Shown: in pieces, positions 8,651-31,701 of the stretch
How positions within the stretch are numbered: position 1 is the first letter of the stretch
Layout of the letters: the number at the start of each line of letters is the position of its first letter
NCBI RefSeq assembly: GCF_000009965.1
Contig: NC_006624.1
Location: 870,001 to 902,000, forward strand
From: Thermococcus kodakarensis KOD1
GTDB lineage: Archaea; Methanobacteriota_B; Thermococci; Thermococcales; Thermococcaceae
DNA length: 32,000 nucleotides
Direction of reading: 5' to 3'
The notes under the pieces: generated by a model
Told to the model about the DNA's origin: nothing
The model's database searches: none
The model's input: the letters and a program-made list of their open reading frames with translations, nothing else
Translations under genes and position numbers: made by a program

Positions 8651-8967
8651 TTCAACCACCGGAGTAAGTCCGGGGCGGTGCTTTTAAGATTTTAGCTTAA
8701 ACTAGCAACTCAAATCGCATGACAGAGAGCAGTCTAAAATGGCTCCCGTCAACCATCTACTCATGACATTGTTTCCCATCTCATTATTACTGACTGATGT
8801 TGATAGGAATCATTCCTCTCGTTCAGAGACCATATTTTTGCCATAGCAAAGACAATCGAGCTTAAATCCTTCAGAAAGCAAAAGATATGCTGTTAATCAG
8901 CGCAGCAAAGTTTATAAACCCTTTAGCTCCACATCTGACGCCCCTCGTAGGAGGGGAGGTGGTCGGT

Positions 8968-9183
8968 ATGTACTACCCACCCAGGAAGAAGGTCCAGCCC
9001 AAGAAGGTTGAGGAAGAAGAGGAAGAGGACTTCGAGCCCCTCGAAGCAGTCGAAGAAGCCTACGAGAACTGGGACGAAGAAGAGTTTGGCGAGGACTGGG
9101 AAGAAGAGGAAGAGTGGGACGAGGACTGGGAGGACGAAGAAGACTGGGATGAGGACTGGGAAGAAGACGAGGATGACTACTGA
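8968..9183 (+). CDS. Small hyper-acidic Trp/Asp/Glu-repeat protein with short basic N-terminus
   Basis: ATG 8968 is preceded by the strong ribosome-binding site GGAGGGGAGGTGG, and a TATA-like TTTATAAA lies about 50 nt upstream. The product is MYYPPRKKVQPKKVEEEEEEDFEPLEAVEEAYENWDEEEFGEDWEEEEEWDEDWEDEEDWDEDWEEDEDDY. Confidence 0.6.
   Translation: MYYPPRKKVQPKKVEEEEEEDFEPLEAVEEAYENWDEEEFGEDWEEEEEWDEDWEDEEDWDEDWEEDEDDY
9091..9180 (+). repeat. Three tandem 30-bp coding repeats (GAGGACTGGGA... at 9091, 9121, 9151)
   Basis: Direct reading shows GAGGACTGGGA recurring with an exact 30-nt period. The units encode EDWEEEEEWD / EDWEDEEDWD / EDWEEDEDDY. Confidence 0.85.
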
Positions 9184-9211: not shown

Positions 9212-10501
9212 ATGAAGGGCCGGCCGGTAAAGAGACAGAAGACCACCCTCAAGACCCTCGAAAAGCGTCGCCAAATGCGGTACCGGCCGGACCCTGGCAG
9301 ATGGTTCTATTCTTTTATCCCGTTTAAGGTCGCCACCGGTGGAGCTGCACCATTGATTCCGCTCCTCACAATGAACGTCGGCGGTGGGCCGGCGGATGTT
9401 GGAATAGTTAACGCGGTGGGCAGTACATTCTCAATGCTCGGCGGCCTTTTCTGGGGAAAGCTCAGCGACAGGCTCAACAGGAGAAAGGCATTCCTGCTTC
9501 TTGGATTTCTCGGGACTGCAATAATGACCATGAGCTTTGCCCTCGCCCGCACAGTCCACCAGGTTATTGCCATAAACGCGGCCTACACGTTCTTCATAGC
9601 CACTACCATACCCATTCCAATCCTCATAATAACAAAGGCTTTCCGCCTTGAGGACTGGGACTACGCGATAGGGAAGTTCAATGAGATCGGCGGCTGGGCC
9701 TGGGTTCTCGGTTTAATAGTAGGACTGCTCTTGACACCCCTGTTCGGGATTAGGGGAACTTTCATTGCCCTTGGAGTCATAGGGCTTCTCTCGTTTCCAT
9801 GGGGCAAAAAGACAATACGGGAAGTCCCACTTCACATCGATAGAAAAATCCTTGGCGTTTACGCTGGCTACGTCGTTGAGAAGTTCAGGTACCTTCCGAA
9901 CATGATAACTCACCTGCCAAGATTCTCGACGAAGGGGTTTGGGAGGCTCTACTTCTCCTCCTTCCTGTTCTGGGTAGGCGCAATGCTCTACTTCACCCAG
10001 TTCCCGGTTCTCCTTAAGTCGAGGGGCTTCGGTGCCACTCACCTCTACCTCATGAGCATAGGGAACTCCACCATATCGGCCTTCATGTACACGCGGGTCG
10101 GTCTGAAACTCAAAAAGAGCGGGGGCTACCTCGCTCTCATTCGTGGGCTTTCAGTTAGGGCATTTGCTTTCTCGCTCCTTGCGGTATCCACGCTAATTGA
10201 GGGCCAAGTTTTTGCGCTCCTTGCCTTCGTCTCGTATTTCCTGGCAGGCTACACCTGGGCATACATAGGAATCTCAACAACCTCGATAATCTCGCGCTTC
10301 GCTCCCCCCAAGAAGAGGGGCGCTCTGATAGGGACGTACAACATGATAAGCTCCCTGGGTGCAATAGCGGGGAACTTCCTCAGCGGTTTTCTGACGGAAG
10401 GGCTAGGTTTTACCGTGAACTTCACGGTTGCAACTGCCCTCCTCCTGGTTTCAATACTTCCGCTCCTCGGCGAGAACGTTAAAAGCAGAAAATCCAACTA
10501 A
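9212..10501 (+). CDS. MFS-type transporter (about 12 TM)
   Basis: It is 429 aa and mostly hydrophobic helices. The loop motif GKLSDRLNRRKA (the MFS G-x-x-x-D-R/K-x-G-R-R/K type) lies between TM2 and TM3. GAGGTG precedes the ATG. Confidence 0.8.
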   Translation: MKGRPVKRQKTTLKTLEKRRQMRYRPDPGRWFYSFIPFKVATGGAAPLIPLLTMNVGGGPADVGIVNAVGSTFSMLGGLFWGKLSDRLNRRKAFLLLGFLGTAIMTMSFALARTVHQVIAINAAYTFFIATTIPIPILIITKAFRLEDWDYAIGKFNEIGGWAWVLGLIVGLLLTPLFGIRGTFIALGVIGLLSFPWGKKTIREVPLHIDRKILGVYAGYVVEKFRYLPNMITHLPRFSTKGFGRLYFSSFLFWVGAMLYFTQFPVLLKSRGFGATHLYLMSIGNSTISAFMYTRVGLKLKKSGGYLALIRGLSVRAFAFSLLAVSTLIEGQVFALLAFVSYFLAGYTWAYIGISTTSIISRFAPPKKRGALIGTYNMISSLGAIAGNFLSGFLTEGLGFTVNFTVATALLLVSILPLLGENVKSRKSN

Positions 10502-10506
10502 CTCCG

Positions 10507-11652
10507 GTGATGACCGTGTTCTGGCTCAAGACGAGGATAAGTGAGGGGGAGGACTCACTAGAGAGCCTCAAGGACGAGGCCAAGGATCACGAACGGGTTC
10601 TCATACTGGCATCTGGTTCTATGAAGAGGCACGGCTTTCTAAGCGAGGCCGAGGACTACGTTAGGGAAGCCGGAGCAGAGGTTATGAGTATATCAGGACT
10701 TCCGGCGGAGCCGAGCGTTGAGGTCATTGAGGAGTTCCTGCCGAAGGTTAGGGAGTTTGGGCCCGATCTCCTCATAGCCATGGGCGGCGGCAGCGTTATC
10801 GACACGACCAAAGCCCTCAAGGTCTTCTACGATGCCCCCGAGCTCGTCTTTGAGGAGATAGCCTTCATCAACCGTTTCTCAAGGCCGAAGCCCGTTCCAA
10901 AACTAAAAACTCCCCTCATCGCGATTCCCTCAACGAGCGGAGCTGGAAGCGAGGTTTCCGCGGCCAGTGTCCTGAAGAAGAACGGGATAAAGTACAACAT
11001 CGTAACGCCGGAGATAGCACCTGAGGTAGCTATTCTCGACCCGAGGCTCCCGAGGACTATGCCAAGGGAAGTTGCGAGGAATTCTGGCCTGGATGTCCTC
11101 GTCCACGGTATAGAGGCTTACACAACTAAGGTCGCTGGGCCCTTCAGCGATGCGATGGCGATAAGGGCGATAAAGACCGTCTTCGAGTGGCTTCCGAAGT
11201 CGGTTGAAGGTGACCCCGAGGCGAGGGCAAGAATGCACTACGCGGCAACGATGGCAGGGATAGCCTTTCTCAATGCCAGGCTTGGTTTGGCCCACGCGAT
11301 GAGCCACAAGGCGGCATGGGTAGGTCCCCATGGCTTACTCAACGCGATATTCATACCCTACGTGATGGAGTTCAACGCCGAGAGGAGTGAGTATGCGAGG
11401 AAGCGCTATGCTGAGATAGCGCGCGAACTTGGGTTGAAGAGTGCTGAAGAGCTGATAAAAGCCGTCAGAGAGCTCAACGAGCGCCTTGGAGTTCCAAAGC
11501 TAAGCGAGCTTGTTGATGAAGAGACTTTTGTTGAAAGGGTTGAGGAGATGGCTGAAAAGGCCTACCGCGACGGGCTGATAGCGTTCAACCCCGTTGAACC
11601 AAAGCCAGAGGAGATAAGAGAGCTTTATCTGAAGGCTTTGAACGCGTTATAG
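10507..11652 (+). CDS. Iron-containing (group III) alcohol dehydrogenase
   Basis: It has GGGSVIDTTKA and the metal-binding His motifs (LVHGIEAY, LAHAMSHK), at 381 aa. The start could be GTG 10507 or ATG 10510. Confidence 0.9.
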   Translation: MMTVFWLKTRISEGEDSLESLKDEAKDHERVLILASGSMKRHGFLSEAEDYVREAGAEVMSISGLPAEPSVEVIEEFLPKVREFGPDLLIAMGGGSVIDTTKALKVFYDAPELVFEEIAFINRFSRPKPVPKLKTPLIAIPSTSGAGSEVSAASVLKKNGIKYNIVTPEIAPEVAILDPRLPRTMPREVARNSGLDVLVHGIEAYTTKVAGPFSDAMAIRAIKTVFEWLPKSVEGDPEARARMHYAATMAGIAFLNARLGLAHAMSHKAAWVGPHGLLNAIFIPYVMEFNAERSEYARKRYAEIARELGLKSAEELIKAVRELNERLGVPKLSELVDEETFVERVEEMAEKAYRDGLIAFNPVEPKPEEIRELYLKALNAL

Positions 11653-11698
11653 ATTCAGATTTAATTTTCTTCAGTTTCGATAACAGGGCAAATCAAGG

Positions 11699-11741
11699 AT
11701 AAATTTTAAATTTTAAATCATATTGAACAGGAATTGGAGGT
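11699..11741 (+). promoter_or_regulatory. Candidate TATA/BRE region and ribosome-binding site for the McrB-like gene
   Basis: GATAAATTTTAAATTTTAAATCA (tandem AAATTTT) lies about 35-50 nt upstream of ATG 11751. GGAGGT at 11736-11741 lies 9 nt upstream of that ATG. Confidence 0.35.
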
Positions 11742-11750
11742 TGATAACAA

Positions 11751-14237
11751 ATGAATCAATCAGTTATAATAGATGGAAAAAGATATGGCGTTGAAGGGCA
11801 CATAAAAAATATTGTAATTTCACCAGATTCGCGATATTTATTAGTAGAGGAAGGAGAACATGAAACTTTTTCTAAGTTGCACTTATACGAGATACACGAT
11901 AATGGGATTAAAAGAGTCTTTGACCCTATACTAAAAAACGAAAAGGGGGTATTTTATTCTTTTGTAGGGGGAGGTAAATTTATAGTCTCATATATTCCAT
12001 CCAACAGATTTTTCATCTATGATTTCATTGACAAAGACTACAATGAGCTGTATTTTACCAATATGGGCAAAATATTCTTTAGGCCAACAGTCCCAGATCA
12101 CAAAATTGTCGTCATATATGCCCCAAGTGGTGCATTATTCCCTCATAGAAATAGGAAATATGTGAATTTAATCCAAGAAATAAATTTCAATCAATATATC
12201 GGTGAGTACAAGTACTATTTGGAAAAAGTCCCAAATACCATTGTCTCACTACGAGATGGAAGCTTTTATCTACCTGTGATAGTAAAAACCCAAGATACTG
12301 GAAAAAAACAACTTATGATTCTAAGATCTACCCAAAATAAACAACAACCTCTTCGGATAATTGATATCAATGATCACGATATAGATTTCAAAGACTGGGA
12401 CATTCAGTATTATCACGAGAATGACAACGAACTGATAATTGGAGCTGTTAATTTATCTTTTAAGAACACACTTCTTGTATATATTATCAATCTTGTTGGA
12501 GAACCTAAAGTATCATCTTTTGATATTGAGTATCAAGGGAAAATTAAGTATGTAAAAATGACAAATAAAAATCTGTATTTAGTCTATGTTGACTCCCAAG
12601 ACGAAAAATATTTGCTACAAATTCCAAATAAGGAACTAGTAGATTATATTAGACATTCTAAAACATCAATTACATTAGATACGAGATTAGAAAAATACAT
12701 AAAAGCGTCCTTAAAAGAATACAATATTACAATCCCTGATGATGAGAAACTTTCAATTTTATGGAGCTGGAATACGCCTAAAATAATAATCACTCCAATT
12801 TCTGAACTTTTAAGTGCTCCAGTAGATTATATAGAAAATTATCAAATAGTAGAGAACAGTGAATTCACAAACTATTCTAGCACCAATCAAACCAATCAAA
12901 ACAGTAGTAGTTCTTATAAACATGACATAAGTAATAAAAATAGTAACGGTGGATATTGCAACGAGGATAAGATAAGCACTATCCAAGTTCTTTTAGATGA
13001 ATACAAGCAAGTTATCTTATATGGACCACCAGGAACAGGAAAAACATTTATGGCCCGAATGTTTTTGAGATGTATTAATGTACCCAATACACACTACTCT
13101 TTTGTTACATTCCATAAGTCATATAGCTACGAGGATTTTGTCGAAGGGTATCGCCCACTCACTCGCGAAGGTAAAATAGAATATGCTGTAAAAGATGGCA
13201 TATTCAAAAAACTCGCAATTAAAGCTATTTATGAACTCATGTCAGACACTATCAAAGAACAATTATTACCCAACTATGAAACACAAATAGAAAATCATGC
13301 TAAAAAGATTGCTTGGGAACGCCTAATTTCAGACTTGAAAGCTAATCGTATAATCCGGAATGATATTCGGGTTGACGACAAAGGAAGAATGTATGTTGCT
13401 GAATATACCATATATGATGGGGACGATCTAATAACAAAAGCAGAGAAGCTTAGAGAGCTTCTTGGTGATTTAGAATCAATTTTCATGACATATAAAGAAG
13501 AAGCTGAATATGAGGGCGTTAAGTTCCTCGTTCAGAGATTTCTTGGAATTCTAGATTCAAAAATTTCAAATGGTGCTCTTAGCACAGAGGACATCAATAA
13601 CTTATTCACTAACAACCCCAAGAAATTTTATTTGGTTATAGACGAAATTAATAGAGCAGATGTTAGTCATGTTTTTGGTGAGTTGATAACTCTTCTTGAA
13701 AAAGATAAGAGAATTAGCGAGGACAACAAAAATCCCATAATAGTCCAACTGCCCTACTCCAGAGAGCTTTTTGCAGTACCCAGCAATCTCTACATAATCG
13801 GAACCATGAATTCCGCGGATAGGGGAATATCCCTATTAGATGTAGCACTAAGACGGAGATTTGCATTTTTGGAAGTACAACCAGACTATAATGTGCTGGA
13901 AGAATTAAATCTCTATGGGATAAGAATCGACAAGTTGCTCAAAGCAATAAATGACAGGATAATTCACTCAAAAGGCAGCAAAGACTATCAAATAGGGCAC
14001 TCTTATTTCCTTGAACTTAAAGAAGCGTTATCAAATGGAAATGAGGATGATGCCCTGCAAAAACTCATACGTATATGGTATAACAGGATACTTCCATTAC
14101 TTCAAGACTATTATTACTCAAGATGGGATGAACTAGATATGCCTGAATTTATAGATGGCACAGGGCAAATAAATTTCGAACTAATGAAATCTCCAGAGAG
14201 GTTCATTGAAGCTCTGAGAGGTATATTGGGAGAATAA
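11751..14237 (+). CDS. McrB-family AAA+ GTPase with a large non-canonical N-terminal domain
   Basis: It has Walker A GPPGTGKT (13023-13046) and the McrB hallmark FHKSYSYEDFVEGYRP. Walker B and the following segment read LVIDEINRADVSHVFGELITLLEKDKR (D at 13641). The McrB signature is IIGTMNSADRGISLLDVALRRRFAF. The N-terminal 370 aa or so is beta-rich with no family I recognise. Confidence 0.85.
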   Translation: MNQSVIIDGKRYGVEGHIKNIVISPDSRYLLVEEGEHETFSKLHLYEIHDNGIKRVFDPILKNEKGVFYSFVGGGKFIVSYIPSNRFFIYDFIDKDYNELYFTNMGKIFFRPTVPDHKIVVIYAPSGALFPHRNRKYVNLIQEINFNQYIGEYKYYLEKVPNTIVSLRDGSFYLPVIVKTQDTGKKQLMILRSTQNKQQPLRIIDINDHDIDFKDWDIQYYHENDNELIIGAVNLSFKNTLLVYIINLVGEPKVSSFDIEYQGKIKYVKMTNKNLYLVYVDSQDEKYLLQIPNKELVDYIRHSKTSITLDTRLEKYIKASLKEYNITIPDDEKLSILWSWNTPKIIITPISELLSAPVDYIENYQIVENSEFTNYSSTNQTNQNSSSSYKHDISNKNSNGGYCNEDKISTIQVLLDEYKQVILYGPPGTGKTFMARMFLRCINVPNTHYSFVTFHKSYSYEDFVEGYRPLTREGKIEYAVKDGIFKKLAIKAIYELMSDTIKEQLLPNYETQIENHAKKIAWERLISDLKANRIIRNDIRVDDKGRMYVAEYTIYDGDDLITKAEKLRELLGDLESIFMTYKEEAEYEGVKFLVQRFLGILDSKISNGALSTEDINNLFTNNPKKFYLVIDEINRADVSHVFGELITLLEKDKRISEDNKNPIIVQLPYSRELFAVPSNLYIIGTMNSADRGISLLDVALRRRFAFLEVQPDYNVLEELNLYGIRIDKLLKAINDRIIHSKGSKDYQIGHSYFLELKEALSNGNEDDALQKLIRIWYNRILPLLQDYYYSRWDELDMPEFIDGTGQINFELMKSPERFIEALRGILGE

Positions 14238-14265
14238 ATATTCATCAAATAATAGGTGGAAGAAC

Positions 14266-15669
14266 ATGGATCACATCTACATCTATGTGCCAGAGCATTC
14301 TATAGACAAGAGGCCATGGAATCTTCCTGAAATACCATCCGAGCTAGTTAATAGCAGAGAATTTCAAAAGTTTGTAGAGCAGATAAACAATTCATATTTC
14401 GATCCAGTATTAGTTATAAAGCACAACAGGCTCGCCGCAGGACCCTATGTTGGGTTCGTTTTATATAAAGACAAAACTTCTGGAAAGATACACCAAATCA
14501 ACATTTATCCAAAAATCTTTCTGGGTGGGCTATCCTCAGAAGATAGCTGGAAAATAGTACTAAAAATCGCAGACTTATACTACAACTTAGGTTTAAGAGA
14601 GTATGATATAAAGACAGCTCTTGCAACTGAAGGGAATTCACCTTTCATTGATATTCTCTTGGATATCTTTTCAAATAGACTACTTAATGAGCTCCGATTT
14701 GGTATTTATGGAGAATTTGTATCTACTGAGGAAACTTCTTCGTCCTTGCGAGGCCAATTATTAGTAGAAAGAGAAATATTGAAATTGCCAACCCAGAAGC
14801 ACAAATTTGATATTAGATATAAAAAATTTACCGTAGACAACTTTCTTAATAGGGTTTTTAAGTATACCTTATACTTAGGGCTACAACATACTAACAGAAG
14901 AGAAACAAAAAGAACATTATCAGAAGCATGGGATATGTTAAAAGAAGTATCCTTAACACCGATATCAGTTGATTCCATAGAAAAATTAACACTAAACTCC
15001 TTAAATCTTAGATTTGAACTTCCCTTGAAGTTAGCAAAAATAATAATATCAGGATTAGATTATCAGAAAGGCCTAATCTCCCCAGGATTTATTATACCTA
15101 TGCCAGATGCCTTCGAGTTTTTTGTATATAAATTGCTCAGAGCCATTCTTGGGAAAGATTATAGAGTACGATATCATCCTCAGAATAGAGAATTCGTTCT
15201 GGAAACACCTAGAAAATTCATTGAGAACCCACCACAGCCAGACATTATTATAGAATCAAGCTCTGGACAGCCTTTAGTCGTGGTAGATGCAAAATACAAA
15301 ACGCTATACTGTCCTAAATGTGGAGAAAAACAGAGATACGTCAAGAATTCCAGTGATTTATATCAAATATATTCTTACACTAAATTATATAATGCTCATG
15401 CAGGTGTTCTCGTATATCCCATGCTGAAAGATTATAGTCAGGGTTCAGGGTATAATCAATATAATCAATGGCTTTGTGATATATCCTCGATATCCACCTG
15501 TAAAAATTCGATATTTCATTTTTTCGATAAAACTAAGTTGGGGATTTTAGGAATAAATCTTGCACACCTTATTAGGGACTCAATAGAAGTCTCTAGTGGT
15601 AATATAACAAAAATTAACCCCAAAATAAAAGAACAGTTAATTTCTTATCTAAATTCGCTAATAAACTAG
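14266..15669 (+). CDS. McrC-like PD-(D/E)xK nuclease subunit
   Basis: It lies immediately downstream of the McrB-like gene, with a GGTGGA ribosome-binding site. It has the nuclease core PDIIIESSSGQPLVVVDAKYK (D 15241, D-A-K 15286-15294) followed by SDLYQIYSY, which matches the McrC D...(D/E)xK...QxxxY arrangement. Confidence 0.75.
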   Translation: MDHIYIYVPEHSIDKRPWNLPEIPSELVNSREFQKFVEQINNSYFDPVLVIKHNRLAAGPYVGFVLYKDKTSGKIHQINIYPKIFLGGLSSEDSWKIVLKIADLYYNLGLREYDIKTALATEGNSPFIDILLDIFSNRLLNELRFGIYGEFVSTEETSSSLRGQLLVEREILKLPTQKHKFDIRYKKFTVDNFLNRVFKYTLYLGLQHTNRRETKRTLSEAWDMLKEVSLTPISVDSIEKLTLNSLNLRFELPLKLAKIIISGLDYQKGLISPGFIIPMPDAFEFFVYKLLRAILGKDYRVRYHPQNREFVLETPRKFIENPPQPDIIIESSSGQPLVVVDAKYKTLYCPKCGEKQRYVKNSSDLYQIYSYTKLYNAHAGVLVYPMLKDYSQGSGYNQYNQWLCDISSISTCKNSIFHFFDKTKLGILGINLAHLIRDSIEVSSGNITKINPKIKEQLISYLNSLIN

Positions 15670-15691
15670 GCTCAGGAAATAAATAAAAACT

Positions 15692-17176
15692 TTAAGAGAC
15701 CATAATTTCCTTTTCTCCCCCCTCCTCCACCTCGCGTATCTTTCCGCCCTTCATGACCTCAACGATGGCAAATGCCAGCAGGGCCAGGAGGAGATAGACC
15801 ACCGACGCTCCCCCAAAGAGCACTTCGTAGGCCTTTTCCGTCGGAATCTTGATCTGAACGAAGGCCGGTGCTCCAGGCGGGTGGAAGAGGACGTAGTAGG
15901 TGCTCATTACCGTTCCAGCTATTGCCGGCCCCCAGGTCGAGCCGAAGTTCCTGAAGAGGCTGTTGGAGCCTGTGGCGACACCCATCATTCTCGGCGGCAC
16001 TGAGAAGACCAGCACGTTGATGAGGGATATGTTCATGAGGTTTATGCCTATTCCAACGACGGTCATCATCGTCACGAACTGCCAGAGAGACATCTTCGTT
16101 GCGTAGAGGGACATTACCGCGAGGGCACCGCTTCCGATGAGGGCACCTGCTATCGCTATCGGCTTCGCCCCGATCTTCGGCATGAACTTTCCGGCGAGAG
16201 GGGCGACGATGAGCATAACGAGGGCCATTGGGGTCATGAGCAAGCCGCTCTGGAGTATCGTCTTTCCGAAGCCGTAGGGTTCCGGCATCTGGAGGAGGTA
16301 AGTGTTCGCCTGGCTCATCATTGAGAGGCCAAAAGCCGCTAACATTATGCCCAGATTGGCTATTGCGGGGTTCCTTGAGGAGATTATCTTAAGCGGCAGC
16401 AACGGGTTTTCCACTCTCCTCTCCCAGAGGACGAGGAGTACCGCGCCAATTACACCAACTCCAAAGAGGATTAAGGTTTCCTTCGCAGTCCAGCCGACGT
16501 TTGGTGCCCTTGTGACTGCCACGAGCATTGGCACCACGAAGAGAGTAAGGAGAACCGCTCCAACTCAGTCAACCTTTCCAGGATTTACATAGCGGCTCTC
16601 CCTGAGTATTTTCCAGGCGAGGAAGAACATCAGCACGGCGAAGGGAGCCGCCGAGTGGTACGTCCAGCGCCACCCGTAGTTCTCTGTGACCCATGCACCC
16701 AGGGGGAGTGCTATGACCATTCCAACCGCGAACATGGCGCTTATCATTCCCTGGACCTGCGGCACCATGCTCGGAGGGAACTCCTCACGGACGAGGGAGA
16801 ACGCCAGCGGGAAGATCGCCATTCCAAAGCCCTGGATTGCTCTCGTAACGAGAAGCCTCTGGAAGCTTGGAGCAAAGCCGTTGAGAATGACGCCAAGAGT
16901 GTAAAAGCCGAGCGCTATGAGGAACATCTTCTTTTTCCCGTACATATCGCCGAGCTTTCCGAAGAGGGCAACGCTGACGGTTCCAACGAGGAGGTAAATG
17001 GTCAGAACCCAGCTGACGTCGTTGGGGTTTATCGCGAACTCCTTCTGGATCGTTGGCAGAGCTGGAGTCAGCATCGCCTCGGTGTACATGACGAGGAGCG
17101 GGAGAAGAACGACAACGAACATCGCCTTCTTTGCATAGGATAAGTCGTAGGTCTCACCCTTCTCGACTACCTGCAT
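15692..17176 (-). pseudogene. MFS drug/H+ antiporter (DHA2/EmrB-QacA-like, 14-TM type) interrupted by one in-frame TGA
   Basis: Listed ORFs 16565..17176 and 15692..16537 are in the same frame, separated by 27 nt. The only interruption is TGA (plus-strand TCA at 16565-16567). Read-through gives ...RYVNPGKVD*VGAVLLTLFVVPMLVAVT..., a continuous transporter of about 494 codons. Confidence 0.8.
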
Positions 17177-17281
17177 TTTTCACCACCGACCTATCGAACG
17201 ATATATCACTTATAAAGCTAGCGGTGGTCTCCAGTAAGGGTTATAATAGGGAGAAGCAATGTTTTACTGAGGGTGTGGAGG

Positions 17282-17485
17282 ATGGAGAAAATAGTCCGCG
17301 GCGTTTATCGCTCGGGTGAGATTATCTTACTTGACGAGACAGAGCTTCATGAGGGCGAGATTATTAAGGTAAAGCTTGTTGGGAGGAAAGAACTCGTGGA
17401 TAAGCTTGCAGGCGTGCTAGGGAAGGGAAAGCCAGAGGACCTCGAAAGATACCTTGAGGAGATGTACTATGAGGGTTCTCCTTGA
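17282..17485 (+). CDS. Small antitoxin-like protein (DUF104/AF2212-like) paired with a PIN toxin
   Basis: MEKIVRGVYRSGEIILLDETELHEGEIIKVKLV resembles the archaeal DUF104 antitoxin-family N-terminus. Its 3' end overlaps the PIN gene start. GGTGTGGAGG precedes ATG 17282. Confidence 0.6.
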   Translation: MEKIVRGVYRSGEIILLDETELHEGEIIKVKLVGRKELVDKLAGVLGKGKPEDLERYLEEMYYEGSP

Positions 17486-17918
17486 CACGAACGTTCTCTA
17501 CAACTTTCTCTTTGAGACGCCCCTCACGGAAAGCTCTAAAAGTCTTCTGTCTGAGCCTTACGAATTCTACGTTAGCACTCTGATTCTTAACGAGCTATCT
17601 TACTCAGTCATCCGGAGAAAGGCGGAAACAGCCTTTGAAATACATTCATACAGAAAACTCAAGGAGTTTCTCAACAAGAACGGTTACAAACCTTTTCAAA
17701 GAGAGTTACGGCTCATGGAATCTGCAATAGAAGGACTTGGGATAATCAAGGTTAATGATTCACAGAACTGGGAGCTTATACGAGAACTCATGTTTAGGTA
17801 TTCTCTCCTTCCGAGTGACGCCACCATTTTGGCAACCGCCATCGAAAACGGGATTGAAGCCCTCGCCACTTTCGATAGGGACTACAGCAAAGTTCAAGAA
17901 CTCAAAATCATTCCTTAA
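17469..17918 (+). CDS. PIN-domain ribonuclease toxin (VapC-type)
   Basis: It has MRVLLDTNVLYNFLF, a mid-protein LNELSY and a C-terminal PSDATILATA...TFDRDY, giving the PIN acidic residues. It overlaps the upstream small gene by 17 nt. Confidence 0.8.
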   Translation: MRVLLDTNVLYNFLFETPLTESSKSLLSEPYEFYVSTLILNELSYSVIRRKAETAFEIHSYRKLKEFLNKNGYKPFQRELRLMESAIEGLGIIKVNDSQNWELIRELMFRYSLLPSDATILATAIENGIEALATFDRDYSKVQELKIIP

Positions 17919-30408: not shown

Positions 30409-31701
30409 TCAAGTTTTCGAGTTCCGGATTTTTGCCACTAAGCTCAACGGCAGCAGTGACAGCAACGCCAGAACTCCAACTCCACATATACCCTCATTCT
30501 TGGACGTTGATGAACTACTGCTTTCAGTCTTCTTGGTCGTGGAGCTGGAGTAATCAGTGTAATTCGTCTCCCTGGGAGTGGAAGTTGTAGAAGATTCAGA
30601 AGATTCCACAGTCCAGTTCTCGTGAACCGCCGGACAGGAACAGCAGTGAACGTCCCGGTATTTGACGGGAGCAGGAATAACCGTTACCCCCTCCTCGGAC
30701 ACGTGAATCAGCGGGAGTTCTCTAAGGGTGTTGTTCTCGTAGAGGTATATTGAAACGTTCATCGGTCTCGGAGGGTATTTTTTAGTAAGGTACGGGGGGC
30801 TAAATATGAATCTATAATCTCCGCTGTGAAACGTGTAGTTATCCTCCACCCACATGCTCCCGTTGAAATAGGCTATCCCTCTCCCAGGAGGCACGATCAA
30901 AAGTCCATCTCCCATGGTTATCGCACAGGAGTCGTTGACCGGCTGAAGTCTTGACTTCAACTCTTCCTCCAAGGGGATTCTGTACTTTGACGAAACGACG
31001 ATCCAGTCACCCTCAATTTTCAGGGGCAGACACTTCCGGTTCCTGAGAGTGAAGAAATCAAACGGTAGCAAGTTATGCAACCAGGCATCGTAAGGGCTGA
31101 ACTTGTCCTCAAGGCTCAAGTTCTTCTCGTTCCCAACGGCCACCAACTTAATGGATTCATCCACCCTGTACAGGCTTCTGTTTCCTATGGGATACTCGTA
31201 AATCAGAACGTAAGGCATTGAAATGTTAAGATCCCCCTGCTGGGGCACTTCTCCAATCTTCTGGATTGCACCGTTGCAGTAGCGGATTACCGTTAAATGA
31301 TCAGCGCAGGGAGGATGCTTCATTGGAAAACTCGTGTTGGTGGAGGCTGGAAGGAAAAGATACAGCCAGCCCTTATAAAAAGCCAGGGGTGGCAGCTCGA
31401 ACCCCGAAAAAGCCATGTAATCAACGTAGTAGGCACCGCTCTCATTGACATAGAAGATGAAATAAGTCCAAAGGTCAATGGGCATGAGAGTTACGGGGTC
31501 GTACTCTGTAGTGAGACCGGCTTCTTCGTAATAATCGTATTCGACTCCCACAAGGGCTCCTTTGGAGTCAGCGTAGATCACGAAGGGCTGGAGCGAAATC
31601 CCCCAGGGATAGTTGGAGTACTCCTGGGCGGATACATTCTGGAGGGACAAGACAAGAAGAAGGAAAATGGAAAGCGCTCCAGCTGGCTTTAGCTTAGACA
31701 T
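30409..31701 (-). CDS. Secreted, heavily N-glycosylation-sequon-rich surface protein with Ser/Thr linker and CGP-CTERM-like anchor
   Basis: The N-terminal signal peptide is MSKLKPAGALSIFLLLVLSLQNVSAQE. More than 10 N-x-S/T sequons are present. The C-terminus has a Ser/Thr-rich tract (SSESSTTSTPRETNYTDYSSSTTKKTESSSSSTSK), then CGVGVLALLSLLPLSLVAKIRNSKT (Cys-Gly, TM helix, basic tail). Confidence 0.7.
   Translation of the reverse strand: MSKLKPAGALSIFLLLVLSLQNVSAQEYSNYPWGISLQPFVIYADSKGALVGVEYDYYEEAGLTTEYDPVTLMPIDLWTYFIFYVNESGAYYVDYMAFSGFELPPLAFYKGWLYLFLPASTNTSFPMKHPPCADHLTVIRYCNGAIQKIGEVPQQGDLNISMPYVLIYEYPIGNRSLYRVDESIKLVAVGNEKNLSLEDKFSPYDAWLHNLLPFDFFTLRNRKCLPLKIEGDWIVVSSKYRIPLEEELKSRLQPVNDSCAITMGDGLLIVPPGRGIAYFNGSMWVEDNYTFHSGDYRFIFSPPYLTKKYPPRPMNVSIYLYENNTLRELPLIHVSEEGVTVIPAPVKYRDVHCCSCPAVHENWTVESSESSTTSTPRETNYTDYSSSTTKKTESSSSSTSKNEGICGVGVLALLSLLPLSLVAKIRNSKT

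What the first reader, a model, noticed from the sequence alone, without database searches (positions are those of the whole stretch)
11653..15691. Sharply bounded AT-rich island encoding an atypical McrBC-like module in a GC-rich hyperthermophile-type chromosome
**Boundaries.** Composition and codon usage switch within a few nucleotides of the adh stop codon. They switch back 22 nt after the McrC-like stop, exactly at the stop of a convergent MFS gene. The insert therefore fills what would otherwise be a convergent intergenic spacer.

**Content.** It holds only two genes: an McrB-family GTPase (hallmarks FHKSYSYEDFVEGYRP, DEINRA, MNSADR) and an McrC-like PD-(D/E)xK nuclease.

**Mobility signals.** I see no integrase, tRNA or obvious flanking direct repeat, so the acquisition mechanism is unclear.

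**Why it matters.** Both proteins depart from canonical McrBC architecture (see the separate findings). This may be a functionally distinct NTP-dependent defence or restriction variant rather than a plain modified-cytosine restriction enzyme.
Basis: partly seen in the sequence, partly recalled or inferred. Interest (0 to 1): 0.75.

Follow-up and report, generated by a model that had tools for sequence, protein, structure and literature searches.

The report
AT-rich McrBC restriction cassette in Thermococcus
A 4-kb AT-rich insert between two ordinary Thermococcus genes carries a two-gene McrBC-type DNA-restriction system. It is an unusual variant of a known defence system, and it occupies a chromosomal slot that is filled in some related strains and empty in most.

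Summary
**Observation.** Window 11640-15691 has GC 0.34 and GC3 0.30, against GC 0.52 and GC3 0.64-0.72 in the flanks. It holds only a McrB-like gene (11751-14237) and a McrC gene (14266-15669). There is no tRNA, integrase or flanking repeat.

**Slot occupancy.**
- Nine of nine related Thermococcus loci from the genome collection have adh directly convergent with the MFS gene across a 22-66 nt spacer (empty sites).
- Two other lineages, one with T. camini proteins and one from a vent metagenome, carry highly diverged, equally AT-rich alleles of the same cassette in the same slot. The left breakpoint agrees to within a codon or so.
- So this is an old, mosaic presence/absence cassette, not a one-strain insertion.

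**Proteins.** Both are true McrB and McrC family members with intact catalytic motifs, but they are atypical:
- The 365-aa N-terminal domain is a predicted seven-bladed beta-propeller with almost no sequence relatives.
- A 125-aa insert splits the AAA+ domain.
- McrC has Ser where the GTPase-stimulating arginine normally sits.
- McrC has a co-varying set of four cysteines.

**Relatives.** The host-composition McrBC of T. kodakarensis and T. siculi shares the propeller-type N-terminus and the missing arginine. The cassette is therefore a new variant of a known kind. The donor and the target recognised are unknown.

The parts
11640..15691 (.). AT-rich cassette (about 4.05 kb). It replaces the last codons of adh and the ancestral 22-66 nt adh|MFS spacer.
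   Evidence: GC and GC3 profiles. blastn homology to empty-site locus L001 ends at 11639 and resumes at 15708; homology to the occupied T. camini-like locus L081 also ends at 11639. Junction alignments.
11653..11750 (+). Leader of the cassette: AT-rich, with AAATTTTAAATTTTAAAT (TATA-box-like) at about 11701-11718 and GGAGGT upstream of the ATG.
   Evidence: Direct reading of the sequence. The AAATTTTAAAT element is shared with the L082 allele leader. Promoter function is inferred, not tested.
11751..12845 (+). McrB-like protein, residues 1-365: N-terminal domain, predicted seven-bladed beta-propeller and presumed target-recognition module.
   Evidence: AlphaFold2 model: pLDDT 73, pTM 0.78, 28 strands in 7 groups of 4. 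All top Foldseek PDB hits are beta-propellers, TM about 0.4-0.46 and 7-13% identity. No Pfam hit. phmmer against 1.84 billion representatives finds only P0002 and two fragments.
12846..12980 (+). McrB-like residues 366-410: low-complexity Asn/Ser-rich linker.
   Evidence: pLDDT below 50. Only 7-32% identical among alleles.
12981..13235 (+). McrB-like residues 411-495: first part of the AAA+ domain, with Walker A GPPGTGKT, Phe433 and FHKSYSYEDFVEGYRP.
   Evidence: Aligned to T. gammatolerans McrB (6UT3/6UT5). Invariant columns.
13236..13610 (+). McrB-like residues 496-620: 125-aa insert between the FHxSYSYEDF segment and Walker B.
   Evidence: Unmatched by TgMcrB or EcMcrB. The motif-to-Walker-B distance is 177 aa here, against 50-90 aa in most homologues, although several others have 157-230 aa. 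It is 72% identical to the L082 allele but only 44% to L081.
13611..14237 (+). McrB-like residues 621-828 plus stop: Walker B DEINR (N634), consensus loop MNSADR (N687, D690, R691), RRR (701-703), His750 and the lid.
   Evidence: Alignment to TgMcrB residues N359, N410, D413, R414, R425/R426 and H501. NCBIfam McrB. Nucleotide homology to the L081 allele starts exactly at 13611.
14266..15669 (+). McrC: scaffold and finger (DUF2357) plus a C-terminal PD-(D/E)xK nuclease. It follows McrB after 28 nt, with an AGGTGGA ribosome-binding site.
   Evidence: Pfam PF10117 4.4e-85 over residues 58-385. TgMcrC 6UT5_G 5.5e-27. P325-D326, D341 and K343 are invariant in 50/50 homologues and A342 is present in 45/50. 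Sequence read directly.
14998..15000 (+). McrC Ser245 codon, at the position of the GTPase-stimulating arginine (TgMcrC Arg263 / EcMcrC Lys157).
   Evidence: Arg occupies this column in 43 of 50 McrC homologues. The four cassette-clade proteins have S, Y, S and H. Three alignment methods agree. The role of Arg263 is from PMC7680126.
15310..15501 (+). McrC Cys349-x-x-Cys352 (insert just after the catalytic DAKYK) together with Cys404 and Cys412: candidate four-cysteine metal site in the nuclease domain.
   Evidence: All four Cys are present in the three adh|MFS alleles. All four are absent in the L085 allele and in the T. kodakarensis, T. siculi and T. gammatolerans McrC. Metal binding is inferred.
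10507..11652 (+). Left anchor: iron-containing alcohol dehydrogenase. Its last four codons, including the stop, come from the cassette.
   Evidence: Pfam Fe-ADH and ADH_Fe_C. Orthologues are 66-90% identical in nine Thermococcus loci.
15692..17176 (-). Right anchor: convergent MFS transporter, interrupted by an in-frame TGA at 16565-16567.
   Evidence: Pfam MFS_1 on both halves. Relatives have TGG (Trp) at that codon.

Best explanation
**What it is.** The island is a two-gene McrBC-type (Type IV-like) restriction cassette of foreign, AT-rich origin. It occupies a fixed chromosomal slot between adh and a convergent MFS gene in a Thermococcus chromosome.

**How it got there.**
- The empty slot is the ancestral state.
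- A single old insertion created the occupied state. It removed the last codons of adh and most of the spacer.
- Since then, diverged and mosaic alleles have been gained and lost among Thermococcus lineages. The most likely route is homologous recombination through the conserved flanking genes, because no mobility gene, tRNA or repeat is present. In this it resembles the integrase-less 'immigration control region' of enterobacteria.

**How it most likely works (inferred from the T. gammatolerans and E. coli structures).**
- The AAA+ part of the McrB-like protein forms a hexamer. All catalytic residues are present: Walker A, Walker B, the MNxxDR loop, and the arginine finger/sensor II.
- One McrC inserts its finger domain through the pore. 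McrC dimerisation couples two hexamers.
- The N-terminal beta-propeller selects the target in place of the usual modified-base reader.
- NTP-driven translocation then licenses double-strand cleavage by the intact PD-D...D-A-K site of McrC.

**Departures from the canonical mechanism.**
- The stimulatory arginine of McrC is replaced by serine, so any stimulation of hydrolysis must use another residue or be weaker.
- The target feature read by the propeller is unknown.
For: **Family placement and motifs:**

**Operon layout:**

**Foreign composition:**

**Empty site is ancestral.**
- 9/9 related loci have adh|MFS adjacent.
- Their adh C-terminal codons (A-F/Y-Y/R-G-x-stop) and purine-rich spacers are mutually homologous, including in the most distant loci L007-L009.

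**Same slot, single origin.**
- L081 (its McrC is the protein a source names Thermococcus camini) and L082/L083 carry homologous cassettes between adh and MFS.
- Their left breakpoints fall within a codon or so of the window's.
- They share short leader and right-spacer elements: AAATTTTAAAT and CAGGAAATAA.

**Polymorphism between close relatives.**
- Window and empty L001: flank nucleotide identity 88-91%.
- Occupied L081 and empty L002: 90-93%.

**Old, mosaic alleles.**
- Window versus L081: flank dS is 1.0-1.7, but dS for McrC and the McrB AAA+ is saturated (third-position identity 0.41-0.43 against 0.51-0.55).
- L081 versus L082: McrC dS 0.67, close to flank dS 0.55-0.62.
- The N-terminal domain and insert of the window group with L082 (56% and 72%), whereas the AAA+ C-part and McrC of L082 group with L081 (85% and 82%).
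- Nucleotide homology to L081 begins exactly at the end of the insert, at 13611.

**Functional precedent.** Deleting either McrBC pair of T. kodakarensis raises transformation efficiency (PMC13385129). A T. kodakarensis McrB found here (P0023) has a predicted propeller N-terminus (pLDDT 89), and its McrC also lacks the arginine.
Against: - No recombination tract is visible in the flanks. Next to the cassette, the window's adh and MFS stay L001-like and L081's stay L002-like in 60-nt bins. Recombination-mediated exchange is therefore inferred from the lack of alternatives, not shown.
- No AT-rich donor was found. All four known alleles sit in GC-rich DNA. Scans of viral contigs, plasmids and metagenomes gave nothing closer.
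- The missing McrC arginine might mean altered or lost coupling.
- An independent assembly of the same island has a frameshift in a T-run of the McrB gene.
- Activity, nucleotide preference and target are all untested.
- PADLOC has no hit for McrC and only 'REase_II' hits for McrB.
Confidence: 0.7

Rival explanations
1. Recent, strain-specific horizontal acquisition. The cassette entered this one strain directly from an AT-rich donor (for example Methanococcales, low-GC Thermococcales, a plasmid or a virus) by illegitimate recombination into the adh|MFS spacer.
For: GC3 is 0.30 against about 0.68, with no sign of amelioration. The nearest relative by flanks (L001, 88-91% nucleotide identity) has an empty site. 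No mobility genes are present.
Against: Homologous cassettes with the same left breakpoint (within a codon or so) sit in the same slot in two other lineages. Independent illegitimate insertions would not reuse the same breakpoint. No donor-like copy exists in viral contigs, plasmids, JGI metagenomes or the 5.8-billion-protein set; every known allele is flanked by GC-rich DNA.
Confidence: 0.12
2. Ancient resident. The cassette was present in the common ancestor of these Thermococcus lineages, was inherited vertically and was lost repeatedly. Its AT-richness is maintained by selection or by lack of the forces that keep core genes GC-rich, not by recent transfer.
For: L081 and L082 show McrC dS (0.67) matching flank dS (0.55-0.62). 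All four alleles keep GC3 at 0.30-0.38 despite residence in GC-rich genomes. The junctions are shared.
Against: Empty sites retain mutually homologous native adh C-terminal codons and spacers, which a deletion of the cassette could not recreate. Six or more independent scar-free losses would be needed. Window versus L081 cassette divergence exceeds flank divergence, and the 5' and 3' halves have conflicting relationships. Both observations require exchange between lineages.
Confidence: 0.15
3. The pair is no longer, or never was, a DNA-restriction enzyme. It is either decaying or has another cellular role. The propeller might sense a protein rather than DNA, or the complex might act on something other than invading modified DNA.
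For: The McrC stimulatory Arg is missing. The usual modified-base reader is replaced by a propeller of unknown ligand. A frameshift variant exists in an independent assembly. Deletion of McrBC in T. kodakarensis causes growth defects, which those authors read as hinting at additional roles.
Against: Both ORFs are intact. All NTPase and nuclease catalytic residues are conserved across four alleles separated by saturated synonymous divergence. dN is well below the saturated dS for the AAA+ and McrC, which indicates purifying selection. The T. kodakarensis McrC found here also lacks the Arg, and both T. kodakarensis McrBC pairs restrict transformation when assayed.
Confidence: 0.1

Closest known systems
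Thermococcus gammatolerans McrBC (PDB 6UT3-6UT8; Niu et al. 2020, PMC7680126)
   Same: It is the best solved-structure match for both proteins (McrB 3.9e-70, McrC 5.5e-27). The following are all conserved: Walker A and B, the Asn of DEINR (Tg N359), the MNxxDR loop (N410/D413/R414), RRR (R425/R426), His501, an aromatic residue after Walker A (Tg W223, here F433), the McrC scaffold/finger/nuclease order, and the PD...DAK site.
   Different: The Tg N-terminal domain is about 185 aa and, per Hosford et al. 2020 as I recall it, YTH-like; here it is a 365-aa predicted propeller. The insert before Walker B is about 57 aa in Tg and 125 aa here. Tg Arg263 of McrC is Ser245 here. The four-cysteine set is absent in Tg. 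Tg Asn193, which reads guanine, aligns to Cys403/Asn404 and is not conserved in the clade.
T. kodakarensis / T. siculi chromosomal McrBC (P0023, P0012; one of the McrBC1/McrBC2 pairs of PMC13385129)
   Same: The N-terminal domain is about 375-400 aa and predicted all-beta propeller (pLDDT 89; PDB hits are all propellers). McrC lacks the stimulatory Arg (His or Pro at that column) and has an insertion after the catalytic Lys. McrC is 28% identical over its full length (1e-45) and the McrB AAA+ is 47% identical. There is weak reciprocal profile similarity between the N-terminal domains (hhalign probability 45%, E 2e-4).
   Different: The Tk/Ts genes have host-like composition (GC3 0.60-0.69) and lie in a conserved topoVI-DUF530-DUF1699 neighbourhood. 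They lack the 125-aa insert (motif-to-Walker-B distance 81-89 aa) and the four cysteines. Their nuclease motif is E-V-K rather than D-A-K. Homology of the N-terminal domains is not statistically established.
E. coli K-12 McrBC and the enterobacterial immigration control region (ICR)
   Same: Both are two-gene GTPase-plus-nuclease Type IV systems (NCBIfam McrB 4.5e-40 and McrC 2.8e-19, both below the equivalog cut-offs). The ICR is a hypervariable defence slot between conserved anchor genes. It has an 'empty site' strain (E. coli C), cassette replacement and no resident integrase (PMC12707154). From my own knowledge, the E. coli mcrBC genes are also AT-rich relative to their genome.
   Different: E. 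coli McrB reads 5-methylcytosine with a DUF3578 domain, and its McrC uses Lys157 as the stimulatory residue. The ICR holds many alternative systems, whereas only alleles of one system have been seen in the adh|MFS slot.
McrB-family diversity census (CoCoNuT paper, PMC10542128)
   Same: It reports that McrB GTPase domains often carry insertions and that N-terminal specificity modules are highly variable.
   Different: No beta-propeller N-terminal module is mentioned in its main text (0 occurrences of 'propeller'). CoCoNuTs are nearly absent from archaea and have coiled-coils and tandem nucleases, which are not seen here.

Membership tests
McrB (AAA+ GTPase subunit of McrBC) | AAA+ (AAA_5-type) domain with Walker A and Walker B | tested here: met
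   Pfam AAA_5 3.7e-20. GPPGTGKT and DEINR are present and invariant in four alleles.
McrB (AAA+ GTPase subunit of McrBC) | MNxxDR(S) consensus loop replacing sensor I, and the RR sensor II / arginine finger | tested here: met
   MNSADRG (N687, D690, R691) and R701-R703 align to Tg N410/D413/R414 and R424-R426. The final Ser of the consensus is Gly.
McrB (AAA+ GTPase subunit of McrBC) | Full-length match to a curated McrB model | tested here: not met
   NCBIfam PRK11331 scores 137.7 bits against a cut-off of 637. Only the AAA+ C-part aligns. This is expected for a divergent archaeal homologue.
McrB (AAA+ GTPase subunit of McrBC) | N-terminal DNA-binding domain that reads a modified base (DUF3578, YTH-like, PUA/EVE and similar) | tested here: not met
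   No Pfam or PDB sequence match for residues 1-395. The predicted fold is a seven-bladed beta-propeller. The ligand is unknown.
McrB (AAA+ GTPase subunit of McrBC) | Preference for GTP over ATP | not testable with these tools
   The guanine-stacking aromatic (F433) and H750 are conserved, but the Tg Asn193 equivalent is not. This needs biochemistry.
McrC (PF10117) | DUF2357 finger domain followed by a PD-(D/E)xK nuclease with intact catalytic residues | tested here: met
   PF10117 4.4e-85 covering profile positions 3-318 of 318. P325-D326, D341 and K343 are invariant in 50/50 homologues and A342 is present in 45/50.
McrC (PF10117) | Conserved basic residue that stimulates McrB hydrolysis (Tg Arg263 / Ec Lys157) | tested here: not met
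   Ser245 occupies that column in a pairwise HMMER alignment, a 50-sequence MAFFT alignment and an hmmalign to a non-clade profile. Arg is present in 43/50 homologues.
McrBC Type IV restriction system | Adjacent, co-oriented mcrB-mcrC pair with no cognate methyltransferase | tested here: met
   There is a 28-nt gap with a ribosome-binding site. No other ORF lies in the cassette.
McrBC Type IV restriction system | Modification-dependent cleavage of foreign DNA | not testable with these tools
   Only genetic evidence from T. kodakarensis relatives is available.
Genomic island acquired by horizontal transfer | Compositional deviation plus presence/absence polymorphism with an identifiable empty site | tested here: met
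Genomic island acquired by horizontal transfer | Mobility signature (integrase or transposase, tRNA target, flanking direct repeats) | tested here: not met
   No tRNA. Only chance-level repeats. There are only two ORFs.
Defence hot spot / cassette locus (ICR-like) | Conserved anchor genes with alternative contents, including an empty state | tested here: met
   Among the adh|MFS anchors in the 11 distinct related loci plus the window, nine are empty and three carry occupied, diverged alleles. Only one system type has been seen so far.

The most novel reading that the evidence does not exclude
Thermococcales harbour a distinct subclass of McrBC: the mobile AT-rich cassette seen here plus the resident T. 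kodakarensis-type system. In this subclass a seven-bladed beta-propeller replaces the modified-base reader and McrC has dispensed with the canonical arginine/lysine 'GAP' residue. The complex would then recognise something other than a methylated base (a DNA structure, a bulky hypermodification or a viral protein) and would couple NTP hydrolysis to cleavage by a mechanism different from the one solved for the T. gammatolerans and E. coli enzymes.
Probability: 0.25. Interest if true: 0.7.

Novelty: new variant of a known kind. Interest (0 to 1): 0.45.

Why it matters
- McrBC is the model motor-driven Type IV restriction enzyme. Its mechanism rests on two structures, in both of which McrC supplies a basic residue to trigger GTP hydrolysis.
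- A natural lineage lacks that residue, carries a beta-propeller where the modified-base reader should be, and is very probably active, because T. kodakarensis relatives restrict transformation. Such a lineage would test how general the solved mechanism is and what archaeal McrBCs actually recognise.
- The locus is also a clean archaeal example of an integrase-free defence slot, with empty, occupied and mosaic alleles. This is useful for studying how hyperthermophiles exchange defence genes.
- It is practically relevant for making Thermococcus strains transformable.

Tried and rejected
- **PADLOC:** no McrC hit, and only generic 'REase_II' or IetA-type P-loop hits for McrB. It was uninformative.
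- **Border repeats:** only short, chance-level matches, so no target-site duplication or att-like site.
- **tRNA scan:** none found.
- **Search for a vector or donor:**
  - The viral-contig scan gave only AAA+ cores at 28-51% identity.
  - Plasmid tblastn with McrC gave at most 28% identity, to Bacillus and enterobacterial plasmids.
  - The metagenome scan with the McrC alignment returned only the two alleles already known.
- **Recombination tracts:** sliding-window identity of adh and MFS against empty and occupied relatives showed no clear imported tract.
- **Homology of the N-terminal domain to the T. kodakarensis-type domain:** hhalign probability is only 45%, and local HMM searches give reciprocal best but weak hits of about 9 bits. 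I treat this as suggestive only.
- **Rejected idea:** that the AAA+ insert is unique to this protein. The Walker A to Walker B distance ranges from 78 to 298 aa among 120 homologues.

Full report
**1.

Across the 32-kb window, GC is about 0.52. The only stretch below 0.40 is 11.6-15.7 kb.
- In 300-nt windows the island averages 0.339 (maximum 0.397, n=37). Elsewhere the average is 0.519 ± 0.037 (minimum 0.373, n=275).
- GC3 is 0.30 for both island genes. It is 0.60-0.72 for adh, both MFS genes, Lhr and three other host genes tested; the AT-poorer PIN gene has 0.50.
- The island holds two co-oriented ORFs, 11751-14237 (828 aa) and 14266-15669 (467 aa). They are separated by 28 nt containing AGGTGGA.
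- There is no tRNA in the window. No border repeat rises above chance-level short matches.
- The surrounding genes are core chromosome: Lhr helicase, SMC, ScpA, a Hef-like helicase-nuclease and adenylosuccinate synthetase.

**2. Exact boundaries and the empty site**

I searched one genome per species with the adh protein. This returned nine Thermococcus or Thermococcaceae loci with orthologues 66-90% identical.
- In all nine, adh is followed directly by the convergent MFS gene across a 22-66 nt purine-rich spacer. None has mcrBC.
- blastn of the window against the closest of them (L001, 88-91% nucleotide identity in the flanks) loses homology after 11639 and regains it at 15708.
- The cassette is therefore about 11640-15691. 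It replaced the spacer and also the last codons of adh. Empty-site genomes end ..A-F/Y-Y/R-G-x-stop, and the window ends ..A-L-N-A-L-stop.
- The native C-terminal codons and spacer are mutually homologous among all empty sites, including the most distant ones (L007-L009). The empty state is therefore ancestral and cannot be a deletion scar.

**3. The cassette is not private to this strain**

The protein search found only three relatives that extend beyond the AAA+ core.
- P0002 is 63% identical over 99% of the protein. P0003 is 47% identical. P0004 is about 54% identical in the AAA+ part and about 20% in the N-terminal domain.
- P0003 lies on a 113-kb contig (L081). The order there is Fe-ADH, McrB, McrC, convergent MFS..., Lhr. 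Its McrC is the protein that a source names as from Thermococcus camini.
- P0002 (L082-L084, vent metagenomes) is likewise flanked by the 3' end of adh and the 3' end of the MFS gene.
- All these alleles are AT-rich, with GC3 of 0.31-0.38, and sit between GC-rich flanks.
- blastn homology of the window to L081 ends at 11639, the same position as for the empty L001. In all three occupied loci the adh reading frame departs from the consensus within a codon or so of the same point. The leader and right spacer share short elements, AAATTTTAAAT and CAGGAAATAA. I read this as a single ancestral insertion.
- P0004 (L085-L087) is a fourth, more distant allele. It sits in a different GC-rich context, between a DUF7411 gene and a CRS1/YhbY-domain gene.

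**4. Evolutionary pattern**

- *Flank relationships.* By flank similarity, the window pairs with the empty L001. The occupied L081 pairs with the empty L002 (90-93%), and occupied L082 is next closest. Presence/absence is therefore polymorphic within two separate sub-clades.
- *Window versus L081.* Flank dS is 1.0-1.7 with third-position identity 0.51-0.55. McrC and the conserved McrB AAA+ are saturated, with third-position identity 0.41-0.43.
- *L081 versus L082.* McrC dS is 0.67, matching the flanks at 0.55-0.62.
- *Mosaic structure.* The window's N-terminal domain and AAA+ insert are closest to L082 (56% and 72%, against 25% and 44% to L081). The AAA+ C-part and McrC of L082 are closest to L081 (85% and 82%). 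Nucleotide homology between the window and L081 begins exactly at 13611, the first codon after the insert.
- *Conclusion.* The alleles are old, have recombined with each other, and have moved between lineages.
- *What was not found.* I found no imported tract in the flanking genes. I also found no donor, vector or further allele in viral contigs, plasmids or metagenomes. Exchange by homologous recombination in the anchors is the best available inference, not a demonstrated mechanism.
- *Closest described analogue.* This is the integrase-less enterobacterial immigration control region, which also has an 'empty' strain and cassette replacement.

**5. The McrB-like protein**

*Conserved machinery.*
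- Pfam AAA_5 scores 3.7e-20. NCBIfam McrB scores 4.5e-40, well below the equivalog cut-off. The best solved structures are T. gammatolerans McrB at 3.9e-70 and E. coli McrB at about 1e-39.
- The residues shown to matter in TgMcrB are all present:
  - Walker A;
  - an aromatic residue after it (Phe433 for Trp223);
  - DEINR, with the Asn359 equivalent;
  - MNSADR, for Asn410/Asp413/Arg414;
  - the RRR motif, for Arg425/426;
  - His750, for His501.
- The residue TgMcrB uses to read guanine (Asn193) is not conserved, so nucleotide preference cannot be called.

*Two regions with no counterpart.*
- Residues 1-365 hit nothing in Pfam or the PDB by sequence. Against 1.84 billion representative proteins they match only P0002 and two fragments.
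- An AlphaFold2 model built from the four-allele alignment has pLDDT 73 and pTM 0.78. It has 28 strands in seven groups of four. All top Foldseek PDB hits are beta-propellers, with TM of about 0.4-0.46 and 7-13% identity. This is a generic seven-bladed propeller with no specific relative.
- Residues 496-620 form a 125-aa insert between the FHKSYSYEDF segment and Walker B.
- Such inserts are common. The Walker A to Walker B distance ranges from 78 to 298 aa in 120 homologues, and the published census notes frequent GTPase-domain insertions. The insert is therefore a variant, not a novelty.

**6. McrC**

- PF10117 matches essentially end to end (4.4e-85). TgMcrC is the only solved relative (5.5e-27).
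- P325-D326, D341 and K343 are invariant in 50 of 50 homologues, and A342 is present in 45 of 50.
- The column of TgMcrC Arg263 is Arg in 43 of 50 homologues. It is Ser245 in the window and S, Y or H in the other three cassette alleles. A pairwise HMMER alignment, a 50-sequence MAFFT alignment and hmmalign to a profile built without the clade all agree. Mutating Arg263 to alanine abolishes McrC stimulation of GTP hydrolysis, and its E. coli counterpart is Lys157.
- Four cysteines co-vary. C349-x-x-C352 lies in a short insert after the catalytic DAKYK, and C404 and C412 lie further on. All four are present in the three adh|MFS alleles. All four are absent in L085 and in the T. gammatolerans, T. 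kodakarensis and T. siculi proteins. This suggests a structural metal site.

**7. Relation to resident Thermococcus systems**

- The McrBs of T. kodakarensis, T. siculi and relatives (P0023, P0012 and others) have N-terminal domains of about 375-400 aa. These also model as all-beta propellers (pLDDT 89; PDB hits are all propellers).
- Profile comparison with the cassette N-terminal domain is only weakly positive. hhalign gives probability 45% and E 2e-4 over blades 1-2, and local HMM searches give reciprocal best but low scores.
- Their McrCs are 28% identical to the window's over the full length. They too lack the arginine (His or Pro) and have an insertion after the catalytic lysine.
- Those genes have host-like composition (GC3 0.60-0.69). 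They occupy a conserved topoVI-DUF530-DUF1699 neighbourhood in both species.
- Deleting either McrBC pair of T. kodakarensis markedly raises transformation efficiency. A propeller-type, arginine-less McrBC is therefore probably an active restriction system. I did not establish which TK locus P0023 corresponds to.
- The cassette in the window is best seen as a mobile, AT-rich, diverged sister of this lineage.

**8. Mechanism, with status of each step**

- *Shown by sequence:* family membership, intact NTPase and nuclease sites, operon layout, and absence of a methyltransferase.
- *Inferred from the Tg and Ec structures:* hexameric McrB with McrC threaded through the pore, dimerisation through McrC, and NTP-driven translocation that licenses cleavage.
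- *Inferred from position only:* the propeller is the target-recognition module. DNA-binding propellers exist (DDB2 and E. coli YncE, from my own knowledge), but a protein ligand cannot be excluded.
- *Unknown:* what compensates for the missing arginine, the nucleotide preference, the role of the insert and of the cysteines, the donor, and the mechanics of gain and loss.

**9. Verdict**

The finding is real and correctly placed in the McrBC family. The 'island' is an ordinary kind of thing, a defence cassette in a variable slot, but it is a well-resolved archaeal example with empty, occupied and mosaic alleles. The proteins are a new variant of a known system. Interest is moderate. It would rise if the propeller and arginine-less McrC lineage proves mechanistically distinct.

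Noticed in passing
window 16565-16567 (minus strand), within the MFS gene 15692-17176: An in-frame TGA interrupts the MFS transporter where every relative has TGG (Trp). It is either a nonsense mutation making the right-anchor gene a pseudogene, or a sequencing error. L001 has a frameshift in the same gene.
   Followed up: partly
window 17273-17918: An AF2212-like antitoxin (17273-17485) overlaps a PIN/VapC toxin (17454-17918). GC is about 0.43. Together they fill the MFS-Lhr gap. That gap is only about 85 nt in L003, L004 and L006 and holds different toxin-antitoxin genes in L081. It is therefore a second small variable slot next to the McrBC one.
   Followed up: partly
window 13866-13870 versus L127 (Logan SRR29948419): An independent read assembly identical to window 11270-14723 has T4 instead of T5 here, which frameshifts McrB into 718-aa and 122-aa pieces. 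This is either a homopolymer sequencing error or a genuine on/off variant.
   Followed up: no
L081 5049-7640 (T. camini-like contig), upstream of adh: A HincII-like endonuclease and an Eco57I/N6-methyltransferase gene, with lower GC (0.37-0.46), lie where the window has a second MFS transporter (9212-10501). The region on the other side of adh is therefore also variable and defence-related in that genome.
   Followed up: no
L088 8100-9533 and L089 8142-9536 (T. kodakarensis and T. siculi McrC): These resident McrCs also lack the conserved GTPase-stimulating arginine (His or Pro) and use E-V-K instead of D-A-K in the nuclease motif. The published Arg/Lys 'GAP' mechanism may therefore not apply to a whole Thermococcus McrBC lineage.
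   Followed up: partly
window 8887-9183: A 98-aa ORF has an extremely acidic Glu/Asp/Trp-rich low-complexity tail (..EEEEEEDFEPLE..WDEDWEDEEDWDEDWEEDEDDY). It lies just upstream of the first MFS gene. Its function is unknown.
   Followed up: no
window 30409-31701 (minus strand): A 430-aa ORF has no Pfam match at E <= 0.001, in an otherwise well-annotatable core region.
   Followed up: no
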